A stretch of 42,110 bases of DNA from Octopus sinensis (Eukaryota): positions 1 to 42,110 of the forward strand of contig NW_021835162.1 of NCBI RefSeq assembly GCF_006345805.1, in the 5' to 3' direction. Every line of letters starts with the position of its first letter. Position 1 is the first letter of the stretch. Below, one piece after another: positions 6,741 to 42,110 of this stretch. Made by a program: the position numbers and the translations under genes. The notes under the pieces are model-generated. The model was not told the DNA's origin. It saw only the letters and a program-made list of their open reading frames with translations, and made no database searches.

Positions 6741-8360
6741 TTAGACACGCAACTCGTCGAGGTAGGGAACTCGGTCAATACCGCCCACTGCTGACATGGC
6801 AAACACCCTCTCTCGTGTGCTCAAAAACTAAACTGACTGACTCATCCAATACTTTCTGAAATGTAGAAAATGCTACATTGTCAATTTGCCTCCAGACTTG
6901 CCCCAATTCACTGATCGGCAAACCAAGACCTACCAAAGGAAAAACCCGCTCAAATTTCCCGCCAAAAACAGTTTCCTCTCTTGCCAAACAACTCTTAAAT
7001 TGTCTCCTACACATCGGACATTAATCTCTAACTTGGCAACTGCAAATTCCTCCTCAGTGACATGTCCGTCGAGAACAGAAATAAACTCCTTATGTGCCCT
7101 CATGACCAACTGTCCATAATAACAGGAATACTAACATTATTCATATCTTCTGCCCCTCCACTCACAATATATCCCAACATCCCTGCATCCGAATACGAAA
7201 AGCTCACACCTTTGCACTACTCAGAGTTATCTACCCAAACAAACCAGGAAAGGCCGACTCGACTGACTCATCAAATATTCAAGTCTGGAAGTAGTCGAAG
7301 ACCCGACAACTCCGACTTGTCCACCGAGGATAAATCTGAACAGTCCAGCACACCAAAAGTCATCCCCCACACCCAAACTGCCAGTCACCCACCACAACTA
7401 ACCTCACACCAGGAATGGCCACAATTGCATGACCAATCGGACTGCAAGAGGGGACCCTTACCTCAGCTTCAATACTGATTATAAATATATCAACAATTAT
7501 GAAATGAACTCTTCTCCGCCTTGATTCCTTTACTTGTCCGAATATCAAGCAGTCGGGCAAACCGTTCCACGTCGTCTGAACTGACACCACACCCAATCAC
7601 CGACATATTCTCGGCTATGAAATGCTGAGACACAAATTGTTGGATCTATCCTCTACTGAGGAGATATTACGTTGGGGGATGTGAGGTTGTGGGTCATATA
7701 CGGAGAGGAGTGGACTGAATTGCCCAAATTCCGATGGAAGGCAGCCTCGTGAATCTTTTCAACACAAACAAGCCGGTCGTTGGAATTGGCGATGGAAATG
7801 TCCCTCAGAAGAGGAGTGATCATATCCGACACTTCCCACCGCTTAAAAACGGGGTGGACAGCAGCGAGGGCAAGGTAGGGGGCCATTTGATCACTATTGA
7901 CTCAACACAGTATTCATACAGCACATCCCTCGTGCAGTCCACATAGTAGTACATTGACTCACGTGAGACCACACAACTTGGAAATAACACGACTGATTAA
8001 CCCGAGTGAGGCTCCTCTTTGCTGGACTGATCGAATAAAGTTGAATCCTGTGCAATCCACTTTGCTCTACGCTCACAAATGTGTCAAACTTGGTCAATCA
8101 TGAGTCGAAGAATGTCGCAGATGCCTCGCTGAGTGGTCGACTCGTAGCGTGGGCCAGTTTGGTAGCAAATGGCGAGTCTGGCCATTGGGGATTGGTCGTC
8201 CCGTGAGGCTACTTTTATTCCATTTTTTAAAGTGAAGGACTATTTTCGGTTATTTGTTAATCACCTTCCACGGCTCTGTTTTTAGTGTTGAGGGTGATTG
8301 TTTTATGTTTGGCAAAGATGAAAGACTCCTTCTCTGTTTTGTGTTAGCAAATGACAACAT
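6741..8360 (-). CDS. UQCRC2: Cytochrome b-c1 complex core protein 2 (M16 peptidase family), 12 exons
   Basis: Removing 11 GT-AG introns (25,23,25,26,25,28,25,28,26,26,25 nt) gives an open 446-codon frame containing TLKNGIKVAS..GPRYE, PVFKRWEV, EKIHEAAF, SYSDAGMLG and the C-terminal VPYLDEL, colinear with human UQCRC2. Confidence 0.9.
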
Positions 8361-9408
8361 AAACCATATGACAAAACTAGAATTGATTTAAATAAATTTT
8401 TAACAATTATATTAATAGCAGTTCCTCAAAAATTATTATATAATATATCTCAGAATTGTTGCAGTCGAAAACCTTGTAGTTGAAATCAGTCTGCTTATAC
8501 GCAGTCGCGTGGTTGTAGGCCTTTGGCGTGCTCAGACTATTTCTTTACCCTAAATAATATCTCAACATGAATTGTGTGCTGGAATAGAGCAATTGTAGAT
8601 ATTTGAGTAAAGCAAGTAGTTATTTCTCTGTTTTATCATTCTTCAGAATTTGAAATTATTCTAACTAACCGGGCAGATGTAATGACTACGTGTTTTTAAT
8701 GACTATTTATGCTGTTTATTGTAGAGTAATGTTCTAGCAGTATTTTGTGAGTGCTGAGTTATATGCATCGGAGTTCTGTTTTTCGTGTTTTGAACAGAGA
8801 GATGTCGTATTAGTATGTCTAAAGTTGAAAAGCGTAGGCCGGACGTAATCTTGGGGCTGTAAAGCATATTTAGTAATCATAACTAATGTTAGATGTATGC
8901 CTACTCAAACACGTCCATTCCTAGTTCTTAATACTATTCAACAGACATGTAAAACAAACATAGTTGTAGTTCTAAATAGAGACTGTAGAGGAAAATATAA
9001 AATACGTGGAGGACTGAATTGAACATTTTGTTTTTTGGCCGGTCTTTGTATTAAATCTTGCCAGTTGTCCATTAATCTCTCAATAAATGTTATCAAAAAT
9101 GTTTATGTTACAATAAAAATGCGTGGGCTAGAAATCAAAAGTCGTACCCCAAAAGTCAAAAAGTGGGCCTATTGTAGTGAATCTGACAATACCTAAAAAA
9201 TAAAAAAATCAATTCTTAGAATATAATAAATAACCATTCGTGACATTGCTAATGATTTTTGTCAAAAAGTCAAAAACATAAATGTAAAAAAGAGACTTTC
9301 AAAAACAATAAATATAATTTAAAGTATCTTTACTTCTACTTAAAGGGAGCAAATTCGCAAAAGAAAGCCAAACCACATGAACCACAAAAATAATCAAAAC
9401 AGGAAAGC

Positions 9409-10216
9409 TTAAACGTCGTCTGTCGAGGAATCCTCCTCCGAGTCCTGTTCCTTTCGTCCTTGGAATATATCACTCAAAAAACACCCCAAAGATCCAAATT
9501 GTCCTTCATCAACTTAAGAATATTGGTAGCATCGTTGTTAGTGTTGTCCCAATCCTCGTCATAGTTCGCGTAGGCCTCCGCAAATGCCTCACTGGCCACC
9601 TGAATTGCCTTCTTGGGGTCATTCATGATCTCGTAGTAAAACACAGACAAGTTCAGAATCAGACCCAGTCTGACAATATTCTCAGGAGGCAAATCCTTCG
9701 ACAGAGTTTCTGCCCGGGAATATGCCTCTTTGCTGGCCTGGAGAAACTCCTCACTCGAAGGGACCACTTCAGCCACATATCGGTTATAGTCGCCTTTCCT
9801 GCAATATTACTGCACAATTCACATTTTATAGGCAAAGACTTGGACTTCCACCGAAGGAGACAGTTCTAATAGTCTATCGGCGTATTTGCAGGCCAGGTCT
9901 TTGGTCTCCATAATTTTCTCGACACAGAGAGCTCTGACCTCGGCAATAACCCTTGCCGCATTGTTGTCGGAGTACTCCTCCCTTACCACAATGACGTCCA
10001 ATGTGCGCACTGCGTTCCTGTATTGGGAAATTTTGTTTTTGCAGCAGGAGGAAAGGCAGCTTCGAACACTCTCGGAAACGTCAGTTAAAGTAGTGTCAGA
10101 AAGGAATTGTTCCAGTAATTCACAAGTATCTAAAAGTCGAGATAAACTTGCTGACCATTTGTACGGAAAACTTGGTCTGTGACAAAAATTCCCAATTCGA
10201 GATTGCTCCACATCAT
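9409..10216 (-). CDS. Divergent 14-3-3 protein, 4 exons
   Basis: Introns of 26, 24 and 26 nt give 244 codons containing KMKGDYNRYVAE, RLGLILNLSVFYYEI, ILKLMKDNLDLW and an acidic tail (RKEQDSEEDSSTDDV). Confidence 0.92.
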
Positions 10217-10607
10217 CTCTCTCCTTTTTGATATTTTATTATATTTAATATTTTTATAACAAGTTAATTTTCATGAAGTATTACTAAAAATCTATAATTT
10301 TAAATGTTAATAATAAACCCATATCTCACTAATTTATATCCCCAAAAATGCATAAAAATTAAATAACAGTTATCTTGGTTTATTATAGTGATATAAGAAA
10401 ATTGGTGTCTTTTTGTAAAGTCAAAAATAGCCCATAACGAGTCCAGTAACCAAGTATTATTACTTCACAAAACTCACAAATGAATATTCGCTTTTTCCGA
10501 CTGAGAGAAATAAGAGTTGTCTCGGAATGAAGTAAAAATCAGCATCGCAACATTCCATAAATACTAATATAATGTCTGCTCTTATTTTTAAAATAAATAT
10601 AATTATA

Positions 10608-11319
10608 ATGAACGTGGCTCCAGGTGCTGTATGCTTCCCAGGTTTCGTTTTTAAAGATTAGTCGAATAAGGGGAGGAACTGTCCTTCAAAAATACTCACC
10701 AATCCTCTGCAGGGACCTACGAATTCTTCAACTCAATCCACGCCTCCTTACACGGGACAGTCCAAGTCACCACAGAGAAAGTAAAACACAATTTAACACA
10801 AAGTCAATTTCTGTCTCCCCTTTGACTAAAAAGGCAATAATTCCTTCGGTTGATGACACTGTTCTTGTCCTAATCACCCACGTTTCTGTCAGATTCTGCA
10901 AATGTAGCATCCTCTGTGTGAACTACGAGAAAATGAACTATCCGCGAAAAGGACTTTTAAGGTAGGATGTTCTTTGTGGTAAAATTCAGAAAAGAGGACG
11001 TCCGGGCCACGGAAAAGGACAAAGTTGATTTGTATGCGTCCTTCCGCTGTGGAGACTATGTTTTGGCCAAAATAGTATTTTGAATATTTTTGATTTGTAG
11101 TTAGCAATTGGGGAGACGATGGCCTTTCTGTTGACAACGCAGGAGGATGAGTTGGGGGTTATTTATGCTGATTGTGACCCCCCGATCCCCTCGGCGATGA
11201 TTCCTATCAGTTGGATGGAGATGCAGTGTCCGGTCACTTTTGAAAAGCAGAAGAGGAAGGTGGCTATGACGAACGGACAGGTCATTGAAAAGTGGTTTTC
11301 TTCATTTGCGACTTTTTGA
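10608..11319 (+). CDS. EXOSC1: Exosome complex component CSL4, 5 exons
   Basis: Introns of 29, 23, 28 and 26 nt give 202 codons containing CFPGEEL, RKEDVRATEKDKV, FRCGD.VLAK, LLTT.EDELGV and PISW.EMQCP..RKVA. Confidence 0.93.
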
Positions 11320-12739: not shown

Positions 12740-13405
12740 TTACAATTTAGAATAATTAGCAGAAATGAACCCAAAATTATCATATAGTCTAGAATGGTGT
12801 GAAAAGTGAGTTTCATAGTCGCTGTTAGGAACATGACAAACAAACTGAAGATAGCGAAAAGGATACATACAACCATCATCAAAGGCTACCAATACCCCAC
12901 ACCCAACAACCTGTCAATTCAAATTCCTCAGGCACAAAATCGTCCAAATTTGTGCGATTGGTCTTTGGTCTCAGCCAGGAAAGAGTGGCACAATACTCGC
13001 TGTTTGTGGGAACACAAATGCACTTTATTTGTGCATAATAAGTGACCCCTCCATCAACCACCGACACAATATCCCCGACTATGTATGTATTGCCCTTATT
13101 ATATGTATATTTATACAACTTTGTGAGTAGTCGAGAATAGCTTGTTAACAGTGCTGGAAAGGGGATGGAATGAATTGGGCTATAAATAATAAAATCGTAA
13201 AAACGTCATGTTTGTAGTCTTTTAGTGGTGGATTATTACTAGTATATATGTTTTGGTGGCAAATGTGGCAGAGTGTGTGTCCTTGAGTTCTGTTCCAAAA
13301 TTGTGCCTCTTGGACACCACATTGGTAACATTCTTGTGTAGAATCGAATTTACTCTAAAAATGATTGTTATTCCAATTTGTACACACAGAAAAAGTACTC
13401 GACAT
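12740..13405 (-). CDS. GATAD1: GATA zinc finger domain-containing protein 1
   Basis: CYQC-x16-CHIC finger, then GNTYIVGDIVSVVD..TYYAQI..LSWL and YLQFVCHVP (human: GVYYQIGDVVSVID..YYAQI..LTWL, YLEFVCHAP). 3-4 introns of 25-33 nt; the middle junctions are ambiguous. Confidence 0.85.
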
Positions 13406-15549: not shown

Positions 15550-16442
15550 ATGGGAAAGACAGATGCTAAATATGCTGCTATAAAGAAAAAGAAAACGTAG
15601 TTTTAATCAACAATATAAATAGTATTGACCCCTTTTTGAGGAAGGAATGGTACAACGTGAGTGCTCCTCCCTATTTTGAGAACACAAAAATCGGAAAAAC
15701 TGTCGTAACAAAAACCACTGGAGAAAGTACCCGAGTCTTTGAAATTATTAGAACTCGCATCTGACAACTTGAAAGGGCGTTCATACAAAGTGTCTTTGGC
15801 AGATCTGGATAAAAGCGAGAATTTGTGCTACAAAATATTCCGTTTTGTGTGCGATTCCGTCGAAGGGAAGAACTGCTACACCTCCTTTGCCGGAATGGAC
15901 ACAACCCAAGACAAAAAACAAAGCATTGTCAAAAAATGGCACGTTGGCTTTATTTTGTGGACCTCCATTTAGACTTTGGTGGATGCCCACGCCTCCGCGA
16001 GCACAACCGACGGATATAAACTGCATTGCTTTATGGTGGGTTCTACGGGGAGGAACAAGAACCAGATCAAAAAGACCAGTTATTGTCAGAGGAGGCAAGT
16101 GAAGCGAATAAGGAAGGTGATGGTGGACACGATGACCAGAGGAATTGCGTCCTCCGACTTGGCTTCGTTTATCAAAATAATGTAATCATTCGGTTTTGAT
16201 TTTTAGTAAAGCAGAGGCGATGGCTAAGGATGTGATTAAACGGACAGAGAGGATCTATCCTTTGGGCAAGTTCTGTTGACTAAAGTCAAGGTTTTAAAGC
16301 GACCTAAATATGACAGTTTTTGTTTTGGTGAGTTGTAGAGTCTCAACTTGAACAACTGTATTCGACTGGTGCTGATGTTCAGCCTACGGTTGTGGATAGG
16401 CCTGTTGAGCACGTAGAACCTCCGATTCTTGATAAGGTTTAA
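15550..16442 (+). CDS. RPS3A: 40S ribosomal protein eS1 (S3a), 6 exons; one apparent 1-nt deletion at ~16264
   Basis: IDPFLRKEWY, LKGR..VSLADL, T.F.GMD.T.DK..S.VKKWHTLVDAH, IYPL..KVKVLKRPK and EPP. Introns at 15597-15622, 15727-15751, 15943-15972, 16182-16206 and 16316-16338. Spliced length 764 nt, one base short of a full frame. Confidence 0.95.
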
Positions 16443-18591: not shown

Positions 18592-19685
18592 TCAAACATC
18601 CTGATCGTCGAGTGACTCCCTACTACTGGGACCAGAAGTTCTCCTGTACTCAAGCAGATCAGTCTCGTCAACAAAAATAATATTTTCATACTCCCGAGGC
18701 ACTCTTATCGCACTAGGAGGATCTGCATTGGCCTCGTTCAGACTGACCACCGACCGAGACCTGACATACTGAAACTCCACATGCCGAGTACTGCTGTCGT
18801 TTCTCTCCCACGAAACGTGAATAAACGGTCTTTGCACATAATTATAAAACACTGCCACGATATGACAACGTTCTTACCCTCTGTCCGCCTGCTGGGGTAT
18901 GTCCTCACCCGATCACGTGTTGTGGGGTGGTCTTCGTGAACTATTTTGACTTTCTTAAAACCCCGCATTTCAAGGACTTGTTTGGCCATTATTCGGTTAT
19001 CTGCATATTTGAAAAATTTAGACATTTCTGTGTCGTGGATCACTTTTTGTTAATATAAAAGGATAAACCTTCCACTGGGTGATTAAATGGCCTCTCTCCT
19101 TCATCCAACTCGACATAATCCGAGTCCCGCATAATGGCTATATGACTCTCTCTTTCTCCCCTTAATTTTACTACCTCAATTTGAACCTTGCAGAGCAGTC
19201 TAGTAGTACTTTTAGTAATTGTGTATTCAAAAAGGCATCAAACCGTCCACGAGCCCCAATATTCGAAAATTCATGCAAAAGATCGCCTAAAAATCTATTT
19301 TATCTGCCAAACCCAAATTGTCACATCTAATCGTGGAACTATCAAATGGAATCATCAGGTAATCACACGCCTCTTTAATGTCCAAGAGAGAAAGAGCAGT
19401 TGGGCAGTAAATTGTGTCGTGGAAGTAAAAACCCTATGATTTAGTGGTCCTGTCTACCAGAGTGATTTCAAATATATCCGCAGGAATTCCAAAGCTAGCT
19501 CATACTCGCCATTCTCGTTTTTTACAATGTTATTTAGTTCTTGCTCATTGTTGAACATTCTAAGGTTTCTTTAGGAGTAGTTACCTTCCAAGCATAGAAT
19601 TGGGGTGACGTGTGAGGGCTGTGAGAGGGACGTCAAAACGACGGTGGTCGATTAGAAGTTTTACTACTTCTGAATTCGCAGACAT
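18592..19685 (-). CDS. BTBD10: BTB/POZ domain protein of the BTBD10/KCTD20 family, at least 7 exons; one apparent 1-nt deletion at ~19492
   Basis: PNSMLGRMF, NENGEYE, KEACDYL.I.F, LLHEFSN.GAR, GERE.HI, FFKY.DNR..AKQVL..RG.KK and FYNYVQRPFI..SWE...RHVEFQ.VRS. Six GT-AG introns of 24-26 nt. Confidence 0.9.
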
Positions 19686-21105: not shown

Positions 21106-21109
21106 TAGT

Positions 21110-22705: not shown

Positions 22706-22711
22706 TAACAT

Positions 22712-24772: not shown

Positions 24773-25649
24773 CTAGAAAGCAAAGTCCTCATTGAGCCAA
24801 TTGGGATCCTCCATTGCGGAAGGAACCTAGAAATAAAAAACTGAAATCCAAACAAAGTTCATATCATACTGACGAGCATCCTGATTATAGACCATATCCG
24901 ACTCCTGTTCGTCCACATTTTCAACCTCCTCTACACGGTCTGTCTCCTCGACTTCTCTGTACAGAACATATCCACCATAACATCCCACGGACTTTGTCTA
25001 CTCAGAACTCCCTTAATTCTGAGGAACTCTCTGGACAACAAATACCACATCACCCCAATAGACTCCCTCCCCTACACACTCACTATGAACTACAACCTTG
25101 TTATTGCAGGGAATAACACAATCCACGTTATTGGGGTAGTTGTCACTGTCACAGAAAGCAATCACAATTATCCCCCGCATGGAGGCTTCCTTAATACACT
25201 GATGGTCCACTTGGGGATTGGCTACCACCAACACCAGGGGTTCCATGAATTGTTTCTACCAATAAGAAACATTCCCAGCCTGTCCCCGATTGGTGAACGA
25301 GCCGGGAGTGAATCTCTGGACGACAGAGGCAGATCCCGTGTAGCGGGCAAACTTGAGAGCTGCTCGCTGGGCCAGAATGTTCCCCCCCACAGCGACGATA
25401 TCTTTCGGGTTTTTGATGGCAACCATCAATCGAGCGGCGATTTGGATTTTCTCCCACATGAGGTGAATGTTTATTATGTTTGTCCCTTTTGATTATTAAA
25501 GTGAGTCCCCGAGTACCATCTGTGTTGGTGCTGTAAATATACCTTTCCATTTGTTTGTTAATGCTTGGAGAGGCGATGTGAGCCTTTGAAACAAGTATGA
25601 GTCTTACATCCTCGGGGGTTATTTTCATAAGATTACATCCACCAGACAT
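24773..25649 (-). CDS. RPSA: 40S ribosomal protein uS2 (SA), 5 coding exons; one apparent 1-nt deletion at ~24965
   Basis: [58 protein letters not shown] and PWDVMVD. Introns of 31, 24 (GC-AG, 25279-25256), 25 and 27 nt. Confidence 0.95.
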
Positions 25650-25678: not shown

Positions 25679-27746
25679 CAGGGTTGTTAAAAATCATGAT
25701 TTTTTTCAAAAAAATCAAAAAAATCTGATTTTCTTGATTTAATCACGATTTTTTTTGATTAAATCAGATTTTTTTGAATAAATGATCTTTATTTCAAAAC
25801 GACCCTTTCCACCTGGCTTATCAGAGAACCTCTCTCTTTGTACATAAACACTGAAACGGCCACGCAGAACGATCTATCGTAGTTCCTTATGTCCACCGGG
25901 ATCACTTAACTAGTTTGCATTACGCTTTCTTTCTTTGTGGTCTTCGGGTTAATAAATAAAAAAATATTTCAAAGCGAACTAAAATAAAAAACAAAAACAA
26001 TGGAAATCGTTTTTATTTATTTAAAAGCTTGTAAATGGAAACAAGTTTGGCTGCTTTTTCGATCCCCAGCCTATTGCGTACATTTGAATGTAGAAATCCG
26101 AATGTTGAAAAGATTCTTTCTATTCCACCTGTCGAAGCAACTGCTCAAGAATTTTTTTGCATAGTGAAATTACTTGTGAAGGTAACTGGTATGAATTCGA
26201 CTCCCGCCAAGCTATAGGTGATACTTTACTCAATAAATTCGGAGCAAACATGTATTGTTTAAATGGATCAGCTTTTGCTCTGAAATTAATCAGAGTCGGA
26301 AGTGCATATTCATAATTTTGAGCACAATAACTCAATGCAATGTCAATCTCAACATTTGAAAGAGATTCCCACTACATGTCGGGTCGATCAAATTCGCAAG
26401 TAAGTGGAAAGGTGTTAATGCTTGTTTTGCTCGAATTCTCACTTTTCCTAAAATATTCGTACATCCATTGTCAATATATGTCTGTTCAAGTTCTTTCCAA
26501 ATTTCTACAGCATGACTAATCGTGGTAGAATCATTCTGAATTTTATCTAAAGCGACAGCAATTGGTTTAATAAGCATCAGATATTCTTCAACGCGTCGTT
26601 TTAGGGAAATATTTGGACCTTGGAAAAAATCTCTGTATCAATATCCGTTCTGTGTTCCTCACAAGTTCTCAAAATAATAGACCAATTATCCAGATAAGAT
26701 TGAAAACAGTCTGATAAAGTGTTCCACCGTACATCAATCGGAAGAACGAGTTTTTTTCCTCCATTAGATTTGTACCATGCAGCTGGAAGATGGACGTTTC
26801 GGAAATATTTATTGATTGTTACATAGTTCCTTTAACGTCCGCTACCTCGACATCCTTCAAAGAAGTTGAGATAATGTGCCGAGCAACCATAAGTAATTAT
26901 TTCATTGCCATCTTCCATCATTATCCGTCTCATTTTAGTCATGTTGGCAGCATTATCCGTTACAAGACTGCCGATTGTACATCCAAACCGTTGTTCAGCC
27001 AATTGTGCGGAGGCTAAAGCAACAGATTGAAGATATTCCGCAGTGTGGCTATATCCAGAAGTGTCCACAGTGTCAATGAGATAATTTTCCCCATCTGATG
27101 TCACAACCGAGACACAAATAACGGGTTCATTATGAATGTTGCTCCCCCGTCCAACATCATAGACACTGTTTTGTCCTGGAGTCTTTGTCGACAGTCTTCA
27201 TGTATTTGGTCGTACACATGATCAAGTAATGTACCACCATTTGATGACGAGAGGGTAAACGATACCCAGGAAGAAGCATTTGGACGAATTTGACAAATTC
27301 GGGATGTTCTACACAGCAGCAAACGGAGTGTTTGTAGAAAATATGTATCTAGCGAGTTGCAGATCCATCAAATCTTTCTTAGATGAAGTCGTCGTAGTTA
27401 CGAAATTGATTAATGAATGGTCCTTCATCCTTGGAGGAAATTCGCTTTCAGGTCTCGGCATAATTTTCAGGGATATCAATATTACTTCGACTATTACTAC
27501 ATAATAAATGATGCTGCCTCATCCGAGATACAGACCTTGTATGTCCTTCCCACAATTACGACATCTGGCACGGCTTCCGGTCTTTCCAGGAATAATACGT
27601 TTATCAAAATAAGCCCACAAAGAATCACGCTTTCTTCCAGACATTTAAAAAATTTAAATGATTTTTTTGATTTTTTGATTTTTTTTAATGATTTAAATCA
27701 TTGATTTTTATTGATTAAAATCAAATGATTTAAATCTAACACCCTG
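25679..27746 (-). mobile_element. Full-length hAT transposon with 8-bp TSD, 30 bp upstream of the RPSA ATG
   Basis: TSD gtgcaaat at 25671-25678 and 27747-27754; ends cagggttgtta... and ...taacaccctg; GATTT/AAATC-rich subterminal repeats. Transposase from ATG 27644 has a BED finger (WAYF..CRNC..H), LDG(W)SN, VTDNAANM, CSAH, RWNT and STGGIERIFS, broken by single-base indels. Confidence 0.92.
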
Positions 27747-28214
27747 GTGCAAATATTAAAGAACAATATAGAAATCAATAACGTGTCTACTTTTATTTAA
27801 ATTAAATTCCTTTTGTATCAAAAATAACTTTAATTTTTATTGTCAATTTCTAGTTTTTAATACACAATTTCAGAGTTTTTGATTGTCATTCGTGGCTTCA
27901 GACTTGTCGATTTACTTAATTAAACAGCCAATAATCTATTTGTTGAGGAAGCAATTTATGTTATCACCACGGAGGAAATCAAATAAAATCTTTTGGAATT
28001 CGTTAGCAGATCTTGCCCTAATTTCCAAAAAACTCCTGGAAAGAAGAATCTTTTGTATTTTGGATCTTCTGGAAGAAGCGTACCCCGAAATCACTGTCTG
28101 AAAGTTAAAGAAAGTAGGACAGAAATGTGAACCATTTCGGTCGACAATTCTAAACCCTAGACAAAGTGCAATCTGAACATTTTAAACAACAATATTTATA
28201 AGAATGACACAATG

Positions 28215-29281
28215 TTAAAAATTAAGATCTGAGTAGAAATTTATATTGGGATAGTTCTGGAATGTCTGATCGGGAGTTTGAAAATGCATTGAGGGGAGGA
28301 ACAGCATTGATTTATTGGCTCTTATTGGCTCTCTCAACATACTTTCTGGGTAATATTCGTTTCCATAATGTCCATAATGTTGATAATCTGTCACAAATGA
28401 CGAAAACAAACTATTTTTAAGTCTGTTATTCTGCAGGATTTGTGGTCTTGATTAAACTGATGTTGGTAGACCCCAAATTCTGTGTTACTGGGAGGTGGAT
28501 TGAGAGGTAGGAGGCTAGAGTTGCTCGGTTGTTTCTTTTCCGTTCCTTGGACCTCCTGTTTTGAAACCAGACCTAACACTAAAGACCCTCATTCTGACTT
28601 GGATGACGCGAACTGATAGTCCAGTCATTTGCTCATTTCTTCCAATGTATGACGCAATGGCTTTCTTTCACTTTCGTACAATTCTGTAAGCAGCCCAATT
28701 TGATGTGGTTTGATTGATGTTCTCCGTCCTCGCTGTTTGCATCTGGCTTCATGCTTGGCCTGAACTTCCTGACTAAGGGATTCAGGCTCTTCAGGACTCC
28801 CTTCACTTCCGAACAAGAATCAGGGGACTTTGAGATGCCTTCTGATTCCGCAGTGTTTTTTACTAAAATAACTCGATTATCAAACATATATTTTTGTGAT
28901 AATAGTCCATGCAGTAAAGTGTGGATTTATTACAATAGTGAAATGAGTCCCCAGTTTTGAGTTCTTTGTTACAACACAGACACTTGAGGCATTCAATATG
29001 ATACATATGTGAGTTGATGTTATACACCAATGTATTTAGTTCAATTTGGACGTTACACAACGGACAAAACCCATACATCCTACAAACTAAAATTTTAATA
29101 AAACATTGCATAGTCGTTAAAACAGTAAATCCCATTTCTCACGTAACAACATATGTGAGTACCTGAGAACACACACAACCTGGAGACAGTTAGTGTGAAA
29201 ATATGAGTCCATCAGACGCAAATATGAGTGTTTTGTATAAATTACTTCTTGACATTTGGTACATTTCAGCTGACCATCCAT
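28215..29281 (-). CDS. LIM-homeobox protein, Lhx1/5 (Lim1/lin-11) family; several apparent 1-nt deletions
   Basis: LIM1 CTKC..HTNC, LIM2 CPLC..HIECLKCLCC..LYC.D, homeodomain RGRRTSIK..Q..TGLSVRVIQ|VWFQNRRSKER with a 26-nt intron at the canonical IQ|VW position. Confidence 0.85.
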
Positions 29282-31290: not shown

Positions 31291-32319
31291 GGTACTTTTG
31301 TCGAAGTGGTCGCAGTTTTTTTAGGCCTTTTAAAAAATCTAATAATTTTTGAGGTGGAATATATTATATTTTATTTAAGTCGCTCTATCAATAATTTAAA
31401 ATATTATTAAATTTTTTACTAATTTATTTTCTAATTTTTTTAATATTATGGCGAGCATGTACCTAATATTGATATAAACTGGCACTATAGGTCACATGGA
31501 AAATTCTGTTGTGGACTTATGCAACATCAAATTCCGACAGCTCCCAATAAGTAAGGAGGATGCAGTGCATTTTCTGCAAAATGTGGATATCCTTTCAAAA
31601 TCACGTATATGTCCGAAGGGACATCAGATGGAATTAGTCTTGGGACCGAAGCTCAATTGAAATGCTCAAGAGTTGGTTGTAGAGTCCAATGTTCTATTAA
31701 AAAAGGTATAATTTCTCTCAAATAATTCTAGATACCTGGTTAGAGAATTGAGATGCCATTTGAGGATGTCATCGCCTACATATACTTATGGAGTTACGAT
31801 AGGCATACCTTCAAATGGCTTCATCACGAATACAATTGGGGTGAACATACATATGTCGATTGGGCTATGTTTTTACGTGAAAAATATAATATATTCAGAA
31901 AATTCTTTTGTGATCCAACGACGGGAGTGCACACCCAGACAGTAGAACGAATGTGGGGAAGTGCAAAATGCAAGAATAAAGCTCAAAGAGGAGCTGTAAG
32001 ACATCATCTGGGATCTTATTTCGCAGGTTTTTTTAGTTAGTTATTTTTTCAGATTTGTGGCGAAAACAAATACAGAAACTATAAGGAATCTTTTGCACAG
32101 ATTGTAAAAGACATAAATTCCTTCTACAGTCCTGGAATTTGGATGCCGCGTACTAAAAATGACTAAATTGGTTAAATAAATTTTTAAATAATTTTAATAA
32201 CCATTTAAATTATTGATAGAGGGTTATAAATTAAATAATCTATTTTTCACTAAAAAAATTAATTAATTTTAATTATCTTCTAAAAAAACTGCGACCACTC
32301 TCACTTCGACAAAAGTACC
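31291..32319 (+). mobile_element. Merlin (IS1595/ISXO2-like) transposon, internally deleted
   Basis: Ends ggtacttttgtcgaagtg / cacttcgacaaaagtacc with imperfect TIR similarity over ~130 bp; 8-bp TSD aataaact (31283-31290, 32320-32327); remnant zinc-ribbon region and DPTTGVHTQTVERMWG motif; central DD region missing. Confidence 0.88.
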
Positions 32320-33760: not shown

Positions 33761-33909
33761 GGAGGGGAAAGTGTACACACGTTGAGAATAATTGATTGTT
33801 TATATGTCAATTAAATTTTGTAATGCTTACTATTTATAAAGTACAGTCAACCCTCTCTATAATGAACAAAATGTCCACGTCAAAACATCATGTTCACTAT
33901 TGTCTATAG

Positions 33910-35881
33910 CAGGGGTCACCAAACTTTTTGCACTCGCGGGCCGGATTGACCCCAACACAATGAACGCGGGCCGGAGCACGTGCATAGGATTATAATTTTA
34001 CTAGAAATTCATAAGTGTGTTTTTTACAATAAAAACTAATTTAAACAAAAATAAAGTAAACAAAAATTTTAATGAGAGCTATGGAACTGTGATCTTTTTT
34101 TGATAAGTTCATCAATATTTGGTTTTAAATTGCTGCATCCTATCATGAGAATTGATTTTAAGTGTCCGTCAGTCAATCTTGCACGATGGGCAGACTTAAC
34201 ATATTTCATCCTCGAAAACGTTTGCTCACATTGGTAAGTTGTGCCAAATATAGAAATCATCTTTATCGCAAAATTCTTTAGTCTCGGAAACTCATCATCC
34301 TTGAGATATTCGTAGAACTCAGCGAGTTTGGTCCGTCTGTGACAATCTTTGAGCTGTTCATTTGATTGTAAGTCAATAACTTTTAATTGTAATTCATGTT
34401 GAACATTTTCAACATTACAAGAAAATGGATTTTCGAACAAAATTATATCGCTTTCAATTTTGTCAAGTTCAGAAAACTTATGTAAAAAATGATGTTTTAA
34501 TTCTTTGATAATTCCAATTTGGAAAGTAATGTCGATCTCATAACAGTTTGCCTCACAAAAACTTTTAAAACAAGAAAAGTGTGAAAACTGACGTACTCCA
34601 AGTTGTGACTCGAATAACATCAATTTTTGTCGAAATGCTTTAATTATCCTGTAGAAATCACAAATTAAGTTTTCCTTTCCTTGTAATTTCAGATTTAGCT
34701 CATTCATGTGAGTTGTAACATCAACCAAAAATGATAATTTTGATAGCCAAGCAAGATCTGATAATTCGGGATAATAGTTATTTTTACTGGTTAGAAAAAT
34801 ATCAATCTCACTTCGGAGTTTATAAAATCTATTTAATACATTACCACAGCTAAGCCATCTAACTGCAGTGTAATATGGTAAGTCAAAATATTCAGATCCA
34901 AAATCGTCAAGTAAAACTTTAAACTGACGGTGATTAAGTGAGCTCCCTCGAACAAAGTTTATTATGCGAATAACTGGATTCAACACACATGAAATATTAA
35001 GAGCCTTCGCACATAGTGCGTGCTGATGAAGGATGCAATGAATGAACAAAGTGTTTGAAATATGTAATTCCTCCAATTTATTAGTTATTTGCCCAACTAG
35101 ACCCTTTTTAGAACCAGCCATATTCTTTGCCCCGTCAATCGTAACACAACTCAGTTTCTCCCATTCAAGGTTATAGTCACTTATAGTTTGTTCCAATTCA
35201 TCAAAAATATCTTTTCCAGTGGTTGTTCCATGAATAGAACAAACAGATGCCAGTTCTTCAGTTATGGAAATATTCTCATCAACTCCACGAATAAAAATAA
35301 GAAGTTGCGATGTTCCCGAAATGTCAACTGACTCATCCAATGCAAGAGAATACCACAACATATTACTTGTCTTTTCACAAATTTGTAAATATATATTTTT
35401 TCCAAGCTCTTCAGTTCTCCGTGATACAGAACTCGCCGACAAACTTATTCCATCAAATAAGGAAGAATTTAGTGGGCACAAACAATTAACTGCTTCAATA
35501 ATGCAATTTTTGATATACATCCCATCACTAAAGGGTTTCCGTGTTGTGAAATAATTTTCGTTATCTCGTATCCAGCTCTTGTTACATTTTCATTATTTTC
35601 AAAATTTTTTTTTATAAGGCCTTGTTGAATTTGTAAAGTGCGTTTCAGTGATTCAACTTTATCCTCACGTAGCTTTCCAGTGTACTTGGAATATATCGGA
35701 GCATGATTCGTTTCATAATGACGTCGAATGTTATACTCCTTCATAACAGAGAGATGTTCGTGGCATATTAAACAATAATTATTAAGGTATTAATTGAATA
35801 TATTAAGGTATTAATTGAATATCTCGAAATAGTGCGCGGGCCGGATAAAATGTTGTCGCGGCCGTAGTTTGGTGACGTCTG
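33910..35881 (-). mobile_element. hAT (Charlie/SPIN-like) transposon nested in the pogo element
   Basis: TSD gtctatag at 33902-33909 and 35882-35889; TIRs caggggtcaccaaact / agtttggtgacgtctg; cgcgggccgg subterminal motifs. Confidence 0.93.
34069..35775 (-). CDS. hAT transposase (GTF2IRD2-like), one frameshift at ~35535, N-terminus apparently deleted
   Basis: CLIC..KEYNIRRHYETNH, LALDES, TIDGA, HCILH, VRWLS and CEQTFS; 483-aa uninterrupted ORF. Confidence 0.85.
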
Positions 35882-37619
35882 GTCTATAGTGAACAAAAGG
35901 AATCAAAATAACATTAAACAATATTAAAGTATAATTACAAAGATTATTTAGAGATTTTAATCATGTAATCGGTGATTTTTTGAGAATGATTAGTTTGATA
36001 ATTTCTTAAAATTTTTGTATTTCGTATACTTTTCCTCTTTGTTCATAATCATTCTCAAGAAACCATAATTCAAGTGCCTTCGCATATTCACTAGCTTCAT
36101 ATAGTGTCGGAACATAAATTTTTTCATCTTCTTCTTCAACTTGGTCTTGTTGTTTTAGTTTTCTCGCAAAGTTTTGTATAAAGTTTTCGTCGTCAATTTG
36201 ATCATTTGCATGAATCAAAAAATTTTCATCATCTATTTCTTCTATTTCTGTCAGGTTCTGTATTAACGCATTTTCAAATGCTTTCTTGAAACAATTTGTA
36301 ATTGTTAATTCCGACACTTCTAACCAAGCTTGTTTTATGAATATCAAGCAATTCAATAGAGTGAATTTCTTCAACTTTTCCGTAACTTTTTCGTGATCTA
36401 CATTGTCATCATTAGTATAAAATTCAATCAAGTGTGCACATAGGAGTTGTCTATACCTGTCTTTGAATGATTTATTATTCCTTGATCAAGGGGTTGTAAC
36501 TTCGATGTTGTATTTGGAGGGAAAAAAAAGAGTTCGATGTTACTGTTCTAATTTTCTATTAAGGCTTTCTGTAAAATTTTCAATCACAGAGGTTTCAAAA
36601 AATTGATTTTCCCCACATAAAGCACGGGAAGCAATGCAATATCGATTTTTAAATTTCTCAAGCCATCCATTTGATGCTTGAAATCCTTGAATATTACAAA
36701 CTTTCGCCATTTTTAGAGACATGGACTTCAAAAGATATTCATTGATTGTAAATCCAAATGATCGTTTTTTAACGAACCATTCAAATAGATCTCTGTCGAA
36801 TGGTTGTGACTTGGGCAAGTAAATTTTCTCCTTTATTGGTCATCTTGAACATTAAGAATTCCTTCAGAATTTTTCAAAATTTTGTTTATGCAGCCCAGAG
36901 AAACATTGAAATAAAGGGATAAATCGCGCTGTGTGTAATGTCTATTTTTATGATAAAATTCGATTATTTCCTTCACTGAAATGGAGCATATAGCTATATC
37001 TCTACACGAATATTCACACGGAGGAGTAAACAAATCAGAAAAGTCATTCGAAATTGTGAAGTATGTAAATTTGCCTGTCAATTGAAAGTTTTAATTCTTT
37101 TTAATTTTTAATGTAGATTGGTGATATGAATCATCATATCTTTGCTTTTTCTCGGAATGAAAGATTTCAACAACTTAAGATCACTTTTCTACCTATATGG
37201 ACATTGCAAAATTTTGCAATCAGATTCAAGAATGTATCTCTGAGAGATCTATGCGAAGGGTTCAATCTAGTTCAGATACATGGAAGACCAAACAATCCCC
37301 GTACACAGGGGATGGATAAATTCGAGTCTCCATTCTATCAGGAGGCTGAAATAATTAACATTTTATCAAATAATCGAGTCGAGGCAAATCAATCATTTTT
37401 ATTTAATAGATAAAATATGCTAAAGGAGAGATATGGAGGGTACCAATGGCAAGACTAAAAAATGATTAATTTTAATATTTTTTGTTAAAATGCATTATTC
37501 TTTCAAGTTATTCGATGATTAAAAATTGACATCTACAAGGTCAAAAATGTATGAAATATGAGTCTCCAAAAGTTCAGTTTGAATGTGTTGATTAATTTCG
37601 AAATCATTAATTCTTAATT

Positions 37620-37770
37620 CATTTATTTTTAGACATCTATGGCACTTAGCATTATCAAGAAGAATCAAATTTTTTTTGATTTTGTGAAGACATTTCATCA
37701 TTATTTGTTGTAACCAATTGTTAAAAATATTAATAGTCATCCACGTATTTTAGAACGCATCGAATATAAC
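37620..37770 (-). mobile_element. pogo-type DDE_1 fragment
   Basis: WMTINIFNNWL..LILLDNAKCH. Confidence 0.6.
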
Positions 37771-38540
37771 CTTATCGAGGTGGTCGGCAGATCCCAAAGA
37801 AGAGGGGAGAGATTGAAGTGGTCTAGAACATTAAATGAGGTCATCTGGGTGGATGCAGTGATGTGGTCTGTGGAGAAGGAAATGGTGGCTCGAGCGGATC
37901 TTTAATAGGTGTACAAAGATTTTGCTGATTCTGATTTATCGACAAGGAGAAGTGCGGAGTTTTGTAGTTTATTGTGTTCAAGTGATCTTATGACTTGAAT
38001 GGAAACGTTGTTGTGTATTTGTTTGGACATGGTTGATCAGTAGTCTTAATCGGTTCACAAGAATGTAATGAAATGTTTTTGTTTCTTTACAAGGTAACAC
38101 AATATTGAGGGTATGGCCTGTTCAGGACCTCATAGAGGAATTGTAATCCTCGTATTTCTAAATGATGACTGACAAAAAAATCCTGGATTCCCTATTAAAG
38201 GTGGTCGATGGCTGTCGATGGCGAAATCTAGTAACTGTGGGGAGGGCAGCGTTCAGGAGCGCTGAAGTTTTTGTAAGTTCGTGAGGGATAAACTCTAAAA
38301 ACAGCATGGCCTAGGATAATTTGTATACTACTATATTTTGAATAAAAATAAGATTTATTTCACAAAGCAAAATTATTTTTGACCTCATGATTATTCAATC
38401 TCAAAGTTTAGAAAATTGGGATTATTCATTTATACTTTTTTGACAATACATTCAATACTTTTTTTGACAGTTGATAGGTAATATTAATAGAGAAAGATTT
38501 TTTCTGATTTATTTTTTAAGGAACTATTTATTGTTTCAAC

Positions 38541-39103: not shown

Positions 39104-39302
39104 GTTTAAACAACCTGGAAATATGAAAACAAGTATCGGCGGTATATTTTCTTTTTACAGATGATTTTTCAATTTCAATTTTTAATTTTTATATTACTTA
39201 AATGATATCAAAATATAAATTTTTTTGATTTTTTATTTTTTTATTATTTTGTTTGAATAATGAAATAAACTGTTAAACGTTTTTGCTTCTTGTCGGTTCG
39301 AA

Positions 39303-41686
39303 ATGTTTAAAATTAGTCAATCTATTAATGCACATTCTGACGACGTAAGATGCATATTTATTGACTCTGCAACATCCTTTCTAACATGTTCAAGAGATAA
39401 ATATGCCAAAAAATACATTCTTAACTAGTATTTACAAACCTGTCAAATTCCCAGCCAATCTGGGCTATTTGAGGAACAGTACAGAACATTTGACCACCCA
39501 AAGTATGTTTCCTCAGTCTCCCATTTCCCCCCAAATACTCAATTCCCCAACGGCCTTGTTATAACAGCTTGTTACGATTCAAAAATAAGAGCATTTGATC
39601 TTACAAATCCAGAACCAATATTTACACTGAACAGTCATCGAGGAGAAGGCTCTAATCTAATATATATTTGATAGTATCATGCCTACATGTTCACAACTCA
39701 GTCTTGATAAGTGGATCGTTGGACTCTTCTGCCGTAGTTTGGTTTGATTTTAAAGAGAAATATCGACTGGAAGGCAATTTTGGTTTCTTAAGTCTTTAGG
39801 ACATTCACTTCCGGTGTGGGATGTGGCCATTTACAGGGATGAGTTATACCTGACTGCCTCTGCTGACAGGACTATCAAATTATGGGAGGGTTGTTCGTTA
39901 CGGGCTACTTTCTGGGGGCATTCTGATTGTGTGCGTGGGTTGTCGGTGGATGACGAATTGGACACCTTCTTTTCATGTTCGAACGACGGAACAGTCAAAT
40001 GCTGGACATATGAGTCAAATCAGAGTTTGGAGACTTACTATGGCCATACCAACTATGTGTATGGAGTACAGGGCAGAGGAGGGGATTCATTGGTGTCCTG
40101 TGGGGAAGACAGGTCTGTAAGGGTGTGGAAATGTGGGGAATGTGTGTCCACAGTTGTACTTCCCGTCCAATCTGTGTGGTCTGTTTCTTTTTTTCCAAAT
40201 GGAGACATTCTGACTGGCTCATCGTAGTTATCCTGGTCCATTTTAGTGATGGGATTGTCCGTATTTTTACCCAAGATCAAAGTCGGTATGCTAGTCCCAG
40301 AGATCAAGAGGCATTCTCCGCCGCAGTGGCTTCGATGAACATTCCAGCACAGATCGGGGACCTCTCCACTGAGGCTATTCGAGGAGAGGATTCACTGAGT
40401 GAGAGAGGTGGGTGTGCCCTTAGGAAATATTGCAGGGTCGAAGGAGGGGGAGATTCGAATGGTGAGAGAGGAGAGTGGAGATGTCCTCGCCTACAGTTGG
40501 TCGACCGTGGAGGAACGTTGGCTGAAGATAGGACGAGTAGTGGGGGCGAATGACAGTTCTAAGCAACTACATGAAGGCCGGGTGGTTTCCGTGTGTATCA
40601 GACACAGGAATATGATTATGTCTTTGATGTGGAGTTGGAGGAACTGCTTCCTGGACTCAGACTCAAATTGCCGTATAACATTGGTGAGTCTTATGAGGAG
40701 GCTGCCGACAGATTTGTGTCTGAAAATGACCTTCCTCAATTTTATAAAGAACAGATTGTCGACTTTCTTAAGGCGAATACTTCCAAAACTAATTCGAGTT
40801 TGACTTGGTTGTGTATTTTAGACAAATCAGCTGCGTGTACTGTATATTCTAATCTTCAGTTGGAGGCCATGTCGAGTTGTGTTGTGGGGATTATTTTGGC
40901 AGATAAGATCAAGGAGTTGTCTGATTTGGTCCCCTCTGAGTGGAGGATCAGTGATTTGGAGTGGAATGTTATTCGGGAGGTCGACAAATCGGTGGACTCA
41001 ATGCTTCCTGTGCTCAAAAAACTGATAAACTGGCCTGCAGGTGTTATATGTGGTGATGTGTGTTAGAATATATATTCCCTGTGGTGGATATGATGAGGTA
41101 TATCATGGCTGTGTTCCCCCAGGACATGTTTTTTGTGCTCAAAACTATTTTCCCCGACGAAGGCGAGTTGAGTGGTGTGCTTAGAGAGTGGTTTATTCAG
41201 GCAAGTAAAAGCAGATCTCCAATTCTCAAGTTTATTGCCAATGGACTGGCCTGTGTGAGGAGCAGGGAATATTTTGTGTGTTTGTTGGGTAAATTGAAAA
41301 GTTTGCTGTTTGAATTTGTGGGGTGGCCTGTGGGGGGACAGTCGTTCCCGGTCAATCTCGTATCCCCGTTTCTGACCGTGCTAGTCAATGCGGTCATTTC
41401 TGTCAGGTCACTGGGTGGAAGGGAGGACACTCGGGATGACCTTTCGACTCTTATGATATCCTTTCTTCGAGTTTATATCACTTTCCCTGAGAGGAAGGAT
41501 GAGAACGTGGTGACTGGGCTCAATGTTTTGGGGACTTTGCTTAGTGGGGACTCACGCTTGTCTGCTTTGGTGTTGAGTTCTCTCAACTTTGATGAGCTTT
41601 TGGGGGATATTATTGAATTAAATGTCGGTGGTGGGGCTGTAGCTGCTGCCAAGGAAGTTCGTTCGATTATTCAGAACTCCCTTTAG
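39303..41686 (+). CDS. PLAA: Phospholipase A2-activating protein / Doa1 (WD40-PFU-PUL), 10 exons
   Basis: Introns 39428-39454, 39649-39674 (GC), 39774-39799 (GC), 40224-40246, 40408-40435, 40582-40607, 40798-40821, 40876-40902 and 41041-41066 give an open 717-codon frame containing HSDDVR, SADRTIKLW, GHSDCVRGL, SCSNDG, GEDRSVRVW, EYDYVFDV..LKLPYN and WP.EYIFP..D. Confidence 0.93.
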
Positions 41687-41794
41687 TCACGTGTCTTTGT
41701 TTTCAGCTTATTTTCAACTGTTTTTTGATTATTTAAGAAATTAGTTTTATTTTTATTTAAATGACAAATCGATATATTTAATTAATTTAAAATA

Positions 41795-42110
41795 ATGATC
41801 AAGTGGTTTGGACGTGGAGTTGAGTTGCTATTCAATCATCAGTCACTCCGATCTACCTCAAGCCATCAATTTTCAAGGCAAGTTTCTCTGAGGCTATAAA
41901 GCAGGCGTCACGCCATTGCCTTTCTGGGTAGCTCTTTGTGTACTCTGGGTGTCGGTCTGGGGACGTTTGCTTATGTAAATCCTACGCTTCATTCAAAGGT
42001 GGCTGGTTTATTAGAATCTTTGAAAAATATAAATATGGAAAAAATTGTTAATTTTTTTTAATTATCTTTAATTTTAGATTTCATTAAATTTATTGGAAAA
42101 TAAAAGTCAA
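41795..42110 (+). CDS. Partial gene: presequence-like N-terminus plus one TM helix (MIC60/mitofilin-like architecture, unconfirmed)
   Basis: ATG at 41795. The frame stays open only via a 27-nt AG|GCAAGT..cag intron (41878-41904), giving AIAFLGSSLCTLGVGLGTFAYVNP. Second intron near 42047; runs off the window. Confidence 0.45.

What the first reader, a model, noticed from the sequence alone, without database searches (positions are those of the whole stretch)
6741..41904. Genome-wide ultra-short introns (23-33 nt) at ancestral positions, with almost no splice-site consensus
Seen: about 50 introns in 10 genes all fall at 23-33 nt (mode 25-26), and their removal gives exact frames for UQCRC2, 14-3-3, EXOSC1 and PLAA. 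Donors vary freely (gttt, gtgt, gtca, gtag, gtgg), acceptors include AAG, and many introns are purine- or G-rich with no polypyrimidine tract (e.g. gttagttgtggtgggtgactggcag). From my memory of human gene structures, all five RPS3A introns and most UQCRC2 and PLAA introns are at conserved positions, so introns shrank rather than being lost. Inference: splice sites are chosen largely by distance, by a modified spliceosome. Introns this short are known from dicyemids, so the phenomenon may not be new, but the mechanism is poorly understood.
Basis: partly seen in the sequence, partly recalled or inferred. Interest (0 to 1): 0.75.

Follow-up and report, generated by a model that had tools for sequence, protein, structure and literature searches.

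The report
Tiny introns of hidden dicyemid parasite
This DNA is not from the octopus-like host whose genome holds it but likely from a dicyemid, a tiny kidney parasite already known for very short introns; its genes are split by 23-33-base segments at the same places as the host's long introns, and these are likely removed by an ordinary splicing machine working near its minimum size.

Summary
The window is a whole small contig in a 2.7-Gb cephalopod assembly. A second 18S rRNA, second copies of single-copy genes and an RPS13 79% like Dicyema japonicum's point to a co-sequenced dicyemid other than D. japonicum. I modelled 50 introns in 9 genes (23-33 nt, median 26). Of 34 that could be compared, 26 sit at the same codon and phase as the host's long introns (about 0.2 expected). 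So 'genome-wide' holds for the parasite only. 'Almost no consensus' is overstated: all 50 have an A between +16 and -6, none of 49 ends in GAG, and weak signals separate introns from exonic decoys (AUC 0.95; length 0.59). Parasite-type U1, U2 and U6 keep their canonical pairing sequences, and U1-70K, SF1 and UPF1 are present. U1 is trimmed and lacks the GCG/CGC stem of stem-loop 4. Short, weak-signal, position-conserved dicyemid introns are in print (2007-2026), and this scan found the same on other contigs (e1-10334303, e1-10356729). No RNA was examined.

The parts
6741..8367 (-).
   Evidence: Exact frame; PDB match to complex III core 2, E 8e-6; 10 of 10 positions in the aligned span shared with host G000:C7, two of them on weak alignment
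9409..10216 (-). 14-3-3, 243 aa, 3 introns: 10155-10130, 9822-9799, 9484-9459
   Evidence: PF00244; exact frame; 1 of 2 positions in span shared with host C6 paralogue
10608..11319 (+). EXOSC1/CSL4, 201 aa, 4 introns: 10642-10670, 10781-10803, 10962-10989, 11075-11100
   Evidence: PDB CSL4 E 3e-10; ECR1_N and EXOSC1 Pfam pieces below cut-off; exact frame; no host comparison (one search found none)
12740..13405 (-). GATAD1-like gene (name recalled, from no call), 4 introns: 13387-13355 (33 nt, least certain), 13204-13180, 13119-13095, 12910-12886
   Evidence: Exact frame; no Pfam or credible PDB match for the exons tried
15550..16442 (+). RPS3A, 5 introns: 15597-15622, 15727-15751, 15943-15972, 16182-16206, 16316-16338; one base short in exon 5
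   Evidence: PF01015; host protein recovers 4 of 4 introns in span with flat cost, but the host gene shares 0 of 4 positions
18595..19685 (-). BTBD10/KCTD20-like gene, 6 introns: 19584-19560, 19457-19434, 19312-19287, 19186-19161, 19068-19043, 18877-18852; one base short in exon 2
   Evidence: PF16017 BTB_3; 6 of 6 recovered by flat-cost host alignment, 5 of 6 positions shared with host C2, one off by 2 nt
24773..25649 (-). RPSA, 4 introns: 25516-25486 (31 nt; 24 nt in four other copies), 25279-25256 (GC donor), 25096-25072, 24853-24827
   Evidence: PF00318; 3 of 3 positions in span shared with host C28, whose introns are 2482, 1406 and 938 nt; copies
27880..29281 (-). LIM-homeobox gene, 3 introns used: 29104-29080, 28885-28863, 28598-28573; 3' end not resolved; several one-base gaps against sibling contigs
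   Evidence: LIM and homeodomain Pfam hits; alignment to four copies; not compared with the host
37639..37998 (+). Unnamed open frame with candidate introns 37710-37736 (27 nt) and 37885-37908 (24 nt); not in the curated 50
   Evidence: Open frame after removal; no Pfam match
39303..41686 (+). PLAA, 716 aa, 9 introns: 39428-39454, 39649-39674 (GC donor), 39774-39799 (GC donor), 40224-40246, 40408-40435, 40582-40607, 40798-40821, 40876-40902, 41041-41066
   Evidence: WD40 and PFU Pfam hits; exact frame; 7 of 9 positions shared with host C10
41795..42110 (+). Start of a further gene cut by the contig end; candidate GC-donor intron 41878-41901 (24 nt); not in the curated 50
   Evidence: Frame continues after removal; gene continues on C8318; no Pfam match

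Best explanation
The window is likely DNA of a dicyemid parasite co-assembled with its cephalopod host, and its 23-33-nt GT/GC..AG segments lie at ancestral intron positions and are likely ordinary U2-type introns shrunk to about the smallest size the spliceosome can handle. Steps: (1) SHOWN: the segments interrupt conserved frames at the host's intron positions. (2) SHOWN: parasite-type U1, U2 and U6 genes keep the 5' splice-site arm, the branch-pairing sequence and the ACAGAGA box. (3) INFERRED: U1 binds a weak donor, helped by the exon-side MAG bases and the C-poor, T-rich intron body. (4) INFERRED: U2 uses an A no closer than about +16/+17 as the branch point. (5) INFERRED: the acceptor is the first non-GAG AG about 6 nt or more beyond that A, which gives a floor near 21-22 nt. 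(6) INFERRED: mis-spliced or retained products are cleared by nonsense-mediated decay, as in Paramecium. Distance thus sets the floor and the acceptor, but not which GT is used.
For: Origin: the window is all of G000:C11633 in 2.72 Gb. RPSA, RPS3A, PLAA and BTBD10 each occur as a small-contig type and a chromosomal type only 43-49% identical. There are two 18S types, 1667 nt at 45% GC and 2645 nt at 64% GC. The small-contig RPS13 matches D. japonicum at 19 of the first 24 residues and 22 of 23 first-exon bases, with a 27-nt intron where D. japonicum has 26 nt (counted by eye). Positions: 26 of 34 shared, about 0.2 expected. Branch A: an A in +16..-6 in 50 of 50 (shuffles 40.2 +/- 2.4, 0 of 500 reach it) and in 367 of 410 predicted introns (266 +/- 8.3); the peak is at +17 (51%) in 22-24-mers and moves to +18..+20 in longer ones. 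Acceptor: the rule 'first A from +16, then first non-GAG AG 6 nt on' predicts 50 of 50. Donor exon side: A49/C31, A61, G47; all 3 GC donors follow AG, against 11 of 47 GT donors. Classifier trained on other contigs: AUC 0.95. Machinery: U2, U1, U6, U1-70K, SF1, UPF1. Decay: 9 of 50 are multiples of three (p=0.024), 7 of those 9 with an in-frame stop.
Against: No transcript was examined, so splicing and branch use are inferred. The acceptor rule fits the predicted set less well (319-358 of 410) and internal AG depletion was not reproduced there. That set is about 70% accurate (21 of 30 window predictions match curated introns) and has no deficit of multiples of three (131 of 410). Rule parameters were chosen on the same 50 introns. 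Stopless multiples of three are harder to detect, which inflates the decay signal. The classifier's decoys are coding sequence, so part of the AUC may be coding versus non-coding composition (composition alone 0.83). A strict YTRAY motif is not enriched in the 50 (8 against 7.5). The taxon rests on one 24-residue comparison plus context; the RPS13, 18S and snRNA contigs are tied to the window by tiny introns and 4-mer composition (+0.03 to +0.08 against host -0.11 to +0.02), not by physical linkage.
Confidence: 0.72

Rival explanations
1. A pure ruler: a modified spliceosome joins any GT to an AG about 25 nt away, with no other signal.
For: Narrow length peak with a floor near 21-22 nt, also when the gene finder started from a flat 18-37-nt prior. 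The acceptor is the first non-GAG AG from +22 in 50 of 50. Donor +3..+6 match to U1 is only 28-42%.
Against: 184 exonic decoys against 47 introns; 18 of 50 have a competing GT; length AUC 0.59. The RPS13 intron outside the window skips a TAG ending at +22 (read), which the branch-anchored rule explains. snRNA pairing sequences are canonical.
Confidence: 0.1
2. Same introns, but early spliceosome assembly is rewired: the trimmed U1 has lost the stem-loop 4 contact with SF3A1, and U1 and U2 are set side by side by another, fixed-length contact.
For: Parasite-type U1 is 146 nt against 164 nt in the host. Its stem-loop 4 is predicted as 6 bp without the GCG/CGC stem that the host keeps and that SF3A1 reads in human (PMC8833184, abstract and introduction). 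U6 is also trimmed (100 against 106 nt).
Against: SF3A1 was not examined. Yeast U1 also lacks this stem-loop. Fast sequence evolution and general genome reduction explain trimmed snRNAs without any link to intron length. The fold has no compensatory pairs among four near-identical copies.
Confidence: 0.15
3. The segments are artefacts: read errors, pseudogene insertions or chance GT..AG pairs chosen to restore frames, or host genes.
For: The contig has one-base errors in four genes, and some sibling copies are decayed (RPSA on C10703, RPS3A on C9076).
Against: 26 of 34 positions coincide with host introns (about 0.2 expected), and flat-cost alignment recovers 28 of 34. Intact copies keep GT/AG and length while introns change faster than exons in RPS3A (14 of 130 against 22 of 765) and BTBD10 (9 of 154 against 19 of 939), though not clearly in RPSA (4 of 108 against 25 of 771). 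Separate host orthologues lie on chromosomes.
Confidence: 0.02
4. The co-sequenced organism is not a dicyemid but another short-intron symbiont: a myxozoan, or a ciliate such as Chromidina, which also lives in cephalopod kidneys.
For: Myxobolids and Paramecium have introns of this size; Chromidina infects cephalopod renal appendages (search listing).
Against: The standard code gives open frames ending at TAA, TAG or TGA, unlike the Paramecium-type code (recalled). A LIM-homeobox gene is present. RPS13 matches D. japonicum at 19 of 24 residues against 13 of 24 for Myxobolus rasmusseni (by eye).
Confidence: 0.04

Closest known systems
Dicyemid ultra-short introns (D. acuticephalum, Aruga 2007, PMC2222250; D. 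japonicum, Lu 2019, PMC6736024, and Ogino 2010 as cited in PMC6543705; Dicyema sp., Zverkov 2019, PMC6543705)
   Same: Uniform length of about 25 nt (26.2 +/- 1.9, n=16; median 27 in Dicyema sp.; median 24, Q10 22, Q90 32 in D. japonicum), about 5 introns per gene, conserved positions, cephalopod host, GC near 36%.
   Different: Not D. japonicum: RPS13 exon 2 matches at only 31 of 49 bases (by eye). Median 26 in the window, 25 on other contigs. The species could not be named.
Hadjez et al. 2026 (PMC13644364; whole main text and supplement parts 3 and 58 read): myxobolid and D. japonicum introns under 30 bp
   Same: Donor reduced to GTa, acceptor to AG, no clear pyrimidine tract, weak A stretch proposed as branch site, conserved positions, canonical U2 branch-pairing region.
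   Different: Their U2 search lists no dicyemid, and the parts I read do not treat U1, U6, GC donors or decay. Here dicyemid-type U1, U2 and U6 were retrieved, and +3 is T (49%) more often than A (33%). Supplement figures and unread parts may hold more.
Irimia and Roy 2008 (PMC2483917; passages)
   Same: Dicyemid introns gave the weakest known 5' boundary score (0.5 bits).
   Different: They saw no branch-point signature in 41 introns; a positional A shows here.
Tiny introns of Stentor (PMC9505925; abstract and section 2.1) and Paramecium (PMC8997360; passages)
   Same: Fixed-position branch A about 6 nt from the 3' end with all snRNAs present (Stentor); about 25-nt introns with low GC and reliance on nonsense-mediated decay (Paramecium).
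   Different: Ciliates, independent origin. The Stentor lariat loop is 10-11 nt, against about 16-19 nt inferred here.

Membership tests
U2-type spliceosomal introns | GT/GC..AG ends interrupting a conserved reading frame | tested here: met
   47 GT-AG and 3 GC-AG of 50; frames restored
U2-type spliceosomal introns | Removed from mature mRNA | not testable with these tools
   No reads were examined
U2-type spliceosomal introns | Branch adenosine near the 3' end | tested here: inconclusive
   A in +16..-6 in 50 of 50 and 367 of 410, above all shuffles; no strict YTRAY excess in the 50; no lariat data
U2-type spliceosomal introns | Major-spliceosome snRNAs with canonical pairing sequences | tested here: met
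   Non-host U2 (17 copies printed), U1 (9 hits, 4 checked, E about 1e-11, below Rfam's gathering score), U6 (5 identical hits, 3 checked). U4 and U5 were not searched.
U2-type spliceosomal introns | U1-70K, SF1 and U2AF proteins | tested here: inconclusive
   U1-70K (C8695) and SF1 (C8459) found on small contigs; U2AF not searched
Typical animal introns | GTRAGT donor and polypyrimidine tract | tested here: not met
   Donor +3..+6 carry 0.33, 0.10, 0.25, 0.14 bits against 0.80, 1.07, 0.56, 0.92 in the host; pyrimidines 0.52 against 0.78 (host boundaries were found with a consensus bonus, and runs without it gave the same RPSA and BTBD10 boundaries)
Dicyemid ultra-short introns | Narrow length peak at 22-30 nt across genes | tested here: met
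   48 of 50 curated; 473 of 516 predicted in 77 models over 831 kb, 14 longer than 44 nt
Dicyemid ultra-short introns | Ancestral bilaterian positions | tested here: met
   26 of 34 shared with the mollusc host; RPS3A 0 of 4; vertebrates not available
Dicyemida (taxon) | Sequence identity with known dicyemids | tested here: met
   RPS13 19 of 24 residues and same first-intron site as D. japonicum; one short comparison only
Dicyemida (taxon) | 18S placement in a tree | not testable with these tools
   Non-host 18S found but no reference sequences on hand
Dicyema japonicum (species) | Near-identical DNA | tested here: not met
   RPS13 exon 2 31 of 49 bases, unrelated intron sequence; only one non-host RPS13 type found

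The most novel reading that the evidence does not exclude
An unsequenced dicyemid species hidden in a public octopus assembly runs a rewired early spliceosome. Its 146-nt U1 keeps the 5' arm but has lost the GCG/CGC stem of stem-loop 4, the handle by which U1 contacts SF3A1 across an intron. U1 and U2 instead dock at a fixed 16-17-nt spacing, so intron definition is a steric ruler read from donor to branch A, backed by nonsense-mediated decay.
Probability: 0.12. Interest if true: 0.6.

Novelty: new member of a known kind. Interest (0 to 1): 0.24.

Why it matters
The trait is known, so the biological surprise is small. Three things remain useful. (1) The assembly holds much DNA of a dicyemid other than D. 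japonicum, which allows a between-species test of what is conserved in minimal introns. (2) The 2026 paper leaves open how such introns are recognised; the retrieved U1, U2 and U6 and the branch-then-first-AG rule make that testable. (3) Public annotation is misled: protein P0001, named by its source as an Octopus sinensis 14-3-3-like protein, is a chimera of a BTB-gene exon, two non-genic pieces and the 14-3-3 last exon, joined by false introns of 1630, 273 and 6925 nt.

Tried and rejected
Sequencing runs: no RNA holder listed, which is no evidence either way; no reads were laid. Homologue searches named no Dicyema protein. A gene finder with a fully flat 12-400-nt prior showed a 22-26-nt bump but was too noisy to use. 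The self-trained version is about 70% exact and was used only as a second, weaker set. Iterating from short seeds got stuck and gave false long introns (in part, 60); full-length models replaced it. 'A second parasite species' from the 83% RPSA and 50% RPS3A copies was rejected: these have dead splice sites and look like decayed duplicates, and only one non-host RPS13 type was found. U1: the Rfam search and three patterns found only host copies or chance hits, and a U2-promoter pattern found no U1; a fourth pattern found it. A plain U6 pattern was swamped by host copies. Dicyemid-specific primers were not found in three papers. No EXOSC1 host match. The protein atlas gave no result, so the GATAD1 name stays recalled. 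Rows dropped before counts: the predicted set leaves out window genes, near-duplicates, models with more than one frameshift or fewer than 3 introns, and introns outside 18-40 nt (516 to 410). The classifier test used the 47 GT introns only. Two unnamed frames and the transposon candidates are outside the 50. In print: searches for dicyemid+intron, dicyema+spliceosom, Octopus sinensis+dicyemid+contamin, Octopus sinensis+genome assembly+parasite contig, and short introns+U1+stem-loop IV listed no report of this contamination or of dicyemid U1/U6. Most subscription papers are not in the library, and Ogino 2010 was seen only as cited.
Full report
WHERE THE DNA COMES FROM. The window is the whole of contig G000:C11633 in an assembly of 2.72 Gb and 13,516 contigs with about 30 chromosome-size pieces. 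The 14-3-3 last exon is 99% identical to P0001, which its source names as an Octopus sinensis protein; the next hits are 48% or less. Single-copy genes come in two types. RPSA exon 2 matches four small contigs at 97-100%, a fifth at 83%, and chromosome C28 at 49%. RPS3A, PLAA and BTBD10 behave alike, at 48%, 43% and 43% to the chromosomal copy. Two 18S genes exist: 2645 nt at 64% GC on chromosomes and 1667 nt at 45% GC on C1618. The supplement of PMC13644364 prints the start of D. japonicum RPS13. The small-contig RPS13 shares 22 of 23 first-exon bases, 19 of 24 residues and the first intron site (27 against 26 nt), but only 31 of 49 bases of exon 2. Myxobolus rasmusseni shares 13 of 24 residues. 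All these counts are by eye. I infer a dicyemid that is not D. japonicum. Dicyemids live in cephalopod renal sacs, and D. japonicum was sampled from O. sinensis (passages).

THE OBSERVATION. I modelled 47 introns in eight genes by coordinates and three in a LIM-homeobox gene: 23-33 nt, median 26, mean 25.9. Five genes give exact frames. Three need one more base. For RPSA and BTBD10 sibling contigs supply it, so these are probably read errors. As a check free of length preference, host proteins were aligned to the window with a flat intron cost and recovered 28 of 34 curated introns exactly; the rest shifted in poorly conserved stretches. On 831 kb of small-contig DNA a gene finder started from a flat 18-37-nt prior gave 516 introns in 77 models, 473 of them 22-30 nt and 14 over 44 nt. 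It is only about 70% exact (21 of 30 window calls). A 21-nt intron fits the U1-70K frame, so the floor is near 21-22. Host introns in four of the orthologues are 471-10,978 nt. 'Genome-wide' therefore describes the parasite and not G000.

ANCESTRAL POSITIONS. In the aligned spans, window introns match host introns in codon and phase for UQCRC2 10 of 10 (two on weak alignment), PLAA 7 of 9, RPSA 3 of 3, 14-3-3 1 of 2, BTBD10 5 of 6 and RPS3A 0 of 4: 26 of 34, with about 0.2 expected by chance. A few host introns are absent from the window (UQCRC2 codon 158, PLAA 178, BTBD10 209). EXOSC1, the GATAD1-like gene and the LIM gene were not compared.

SIGNALS. Donor positions +3..+6 carry 0.10-0.33 bits, against 0.56-1.07 in the host, and there is no pyrimidine tract (0.52 against 0.78). 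The signal is weak but not absent. The exon side reads A49/C31, A61, G47; +3 is A or T in 82%; -3 is never G (0 of 49); -8 is A in 55%. Three donors are GC, and all follow AG, against 11 of 47 GT donors. Every curated intron has an A between +16 and -6 (50 of 50; shuffles 40.2 +/- 2.4), as do 367 of 410 predicted ones (266 +/- 8.3). The peak is at +17 in 22-24-mers and moves to +18..+20 in longer introns.

DISTANCE. For acceptors, non-GAG AG ends at 30 of 800 internal positions up to +20 and at 0 of 193 from +21 on (p=0.002). The predicted set does not reproduce this (168 of 6538 against 27 of 1214). 'First non-GAG AG from +22' and 'first A from +16, then 6 nt' both predict 50 of 50 curated introns, but 358 and 319 of 410 predicted ones. 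The RPS13 intron skips a TAG ending at +22, which only the branch-anchored form explains. For donors distance is not enough. There are 184 exonic decoys against 47 introns, and 18 of 50 introns have a second GT at an allowed distance. A classifier trained on other contigs scores AUC 0.59 from length, 0.83 from composition and 0.95 from weak positional signals. Decoys are coding DNA, so the last figure is an upper bound on true splice information. Multiples of three are scarce (9 of 50, p=0.024) and 7 of the 9 hold a stop. Detection bias favours this result, and the predicted set shows no scarcity (131 of 410). UPF1 is present on small contigs.

MACHINERY. A non-host U2 of about 190 nt occurs in 17 printed copies on small contigs with the branch-pairing sequence intact. 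A non-host U1 gave 9 hits. The four checked score 53-56 bits, below Rfam's cut-off of 69.5, with E near 1e-11; they are 146 nt long and keep the canonical 5' arm. A non-host U6 of 100 nt keeps the ACAGAGA box. U1-70K and SF1 were found; U2AF, SF3A1, U4 and U5 were not searched. These contigs group with the window by 4-mer composition. The one structural departure is U1 stem-loop 4: predicted as 6 bp, without the GCG/CGC stem that the host keeps and that human SF3A1 reads (abstract and introduction).

MECHANISM. Most likely an ordinary major spliceosome works at its steric floor: a weak donor, a branch A from about +16, the first eligible AG about 6 nt on, and decay as proofreading. The frames, positions and snRNA sequences are shown. 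Splicing, branch use and decay are inferred, since no transcript was examined.

WHAT IS KNOWN. Aruga 2007 reported 26.2 +/- 1.9-nt introns at conserved positions (passages). Irimia and Roy 2008 gave dicyemids the weakest known donor signal (passages). Zverkov 2019 gave a median of 27 and cites Ogino 2010 (passages; Ogino itself not seen). Lu 2019 gave a mean of 38 (passages). Hadjez 2026 reported reduced GTa/AG signals, conserved positions and a weak A stretch in D. japonicum and myxobolids, and left recognition open (whole main text; supplement row and parts 3 and 58). Stentor and Paramecium supply the fixed branch A and the reliance on decay. This scan had already noted the dicyemid origin and the +17 adenosine on other contigs; my reading was recorded before that look-up.

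VERDICT. A real feature and a new member of a known kind; interest 0.24. What is added here is the direct host-versus-parasite position test, GC donors, the three snRNAs with a trimmed U1 stem-loop 4, evidence that the species is not D. japonicum, and one chimeric public protein.

Noticed in passing
window 19025-9477 (-); P0001: The public protein named Octopus sinensis 14-3-3 protein 3-like is a chimera of a BTB-gene exon, two non-genic pieces and the 14-3-3 last exon, joined by false introns of 1630, 273 and 6925 nt; 242 of 242 residues map to C8318.
   Followed up: yes
L261:1947-2092 (-), L262, L263, L264: Parasite-type U1 is 146 nt, below Rfam's gathering score, with a changed loop I and a short stem-loop 4; standard annotation would miss it.
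   Followed up: partly
window 31440-32170 (+): Broken transposase-like stretch (Merlin-like by recall and by note e1-10332661; no Pfam hit) with two 26-nt candidate introns at 31706-31731 and 32027-32052.
   Followed up: partly
window 25516-25486: RPSA intron 1 is 31 nt here but 24 nt in four other copies: a 7-nt insertion after +3, showing that small length gains are tolerated.
   Followed up: partly
C10703 about 10.0-10.9 kb; C9076 about 55 kb; C8318 143 kb and 308 kb: Duplicated gene copies, some with dead splice sites; blocks of the window recur on C8318 with about 70 kb between them that the window lacks.
   Followed up: partly
window 21244-22708, 25700-27700, 33900-35900, 36000-36900: Transposon remains between genes: a Tc1/mariner element with inverted ends, a DUF659 element, a hAT element and a Tc5/pogo element.
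   Followed up: no
G000:C14:35500645-35504463: The host RPS3A lacks the four introns the parasite has in the aligned span and has one at another site, which may point to a retrocopy origin.
   Followed up: no
window 6001-8000 and 40001-42000: Strong strand skew inside genes (GC skew -0.19 over UQCRC2 on the minus strand, +0.24 over PLAA).
   Followed up: no
C12597, C9061, C9004, C9530, C8320, C8594: Many divergent 14-3-3 paralogues on small contigs, most with 21-30-nt introns, four of them at the same site as window 9822-9799.
   Followed up: partly
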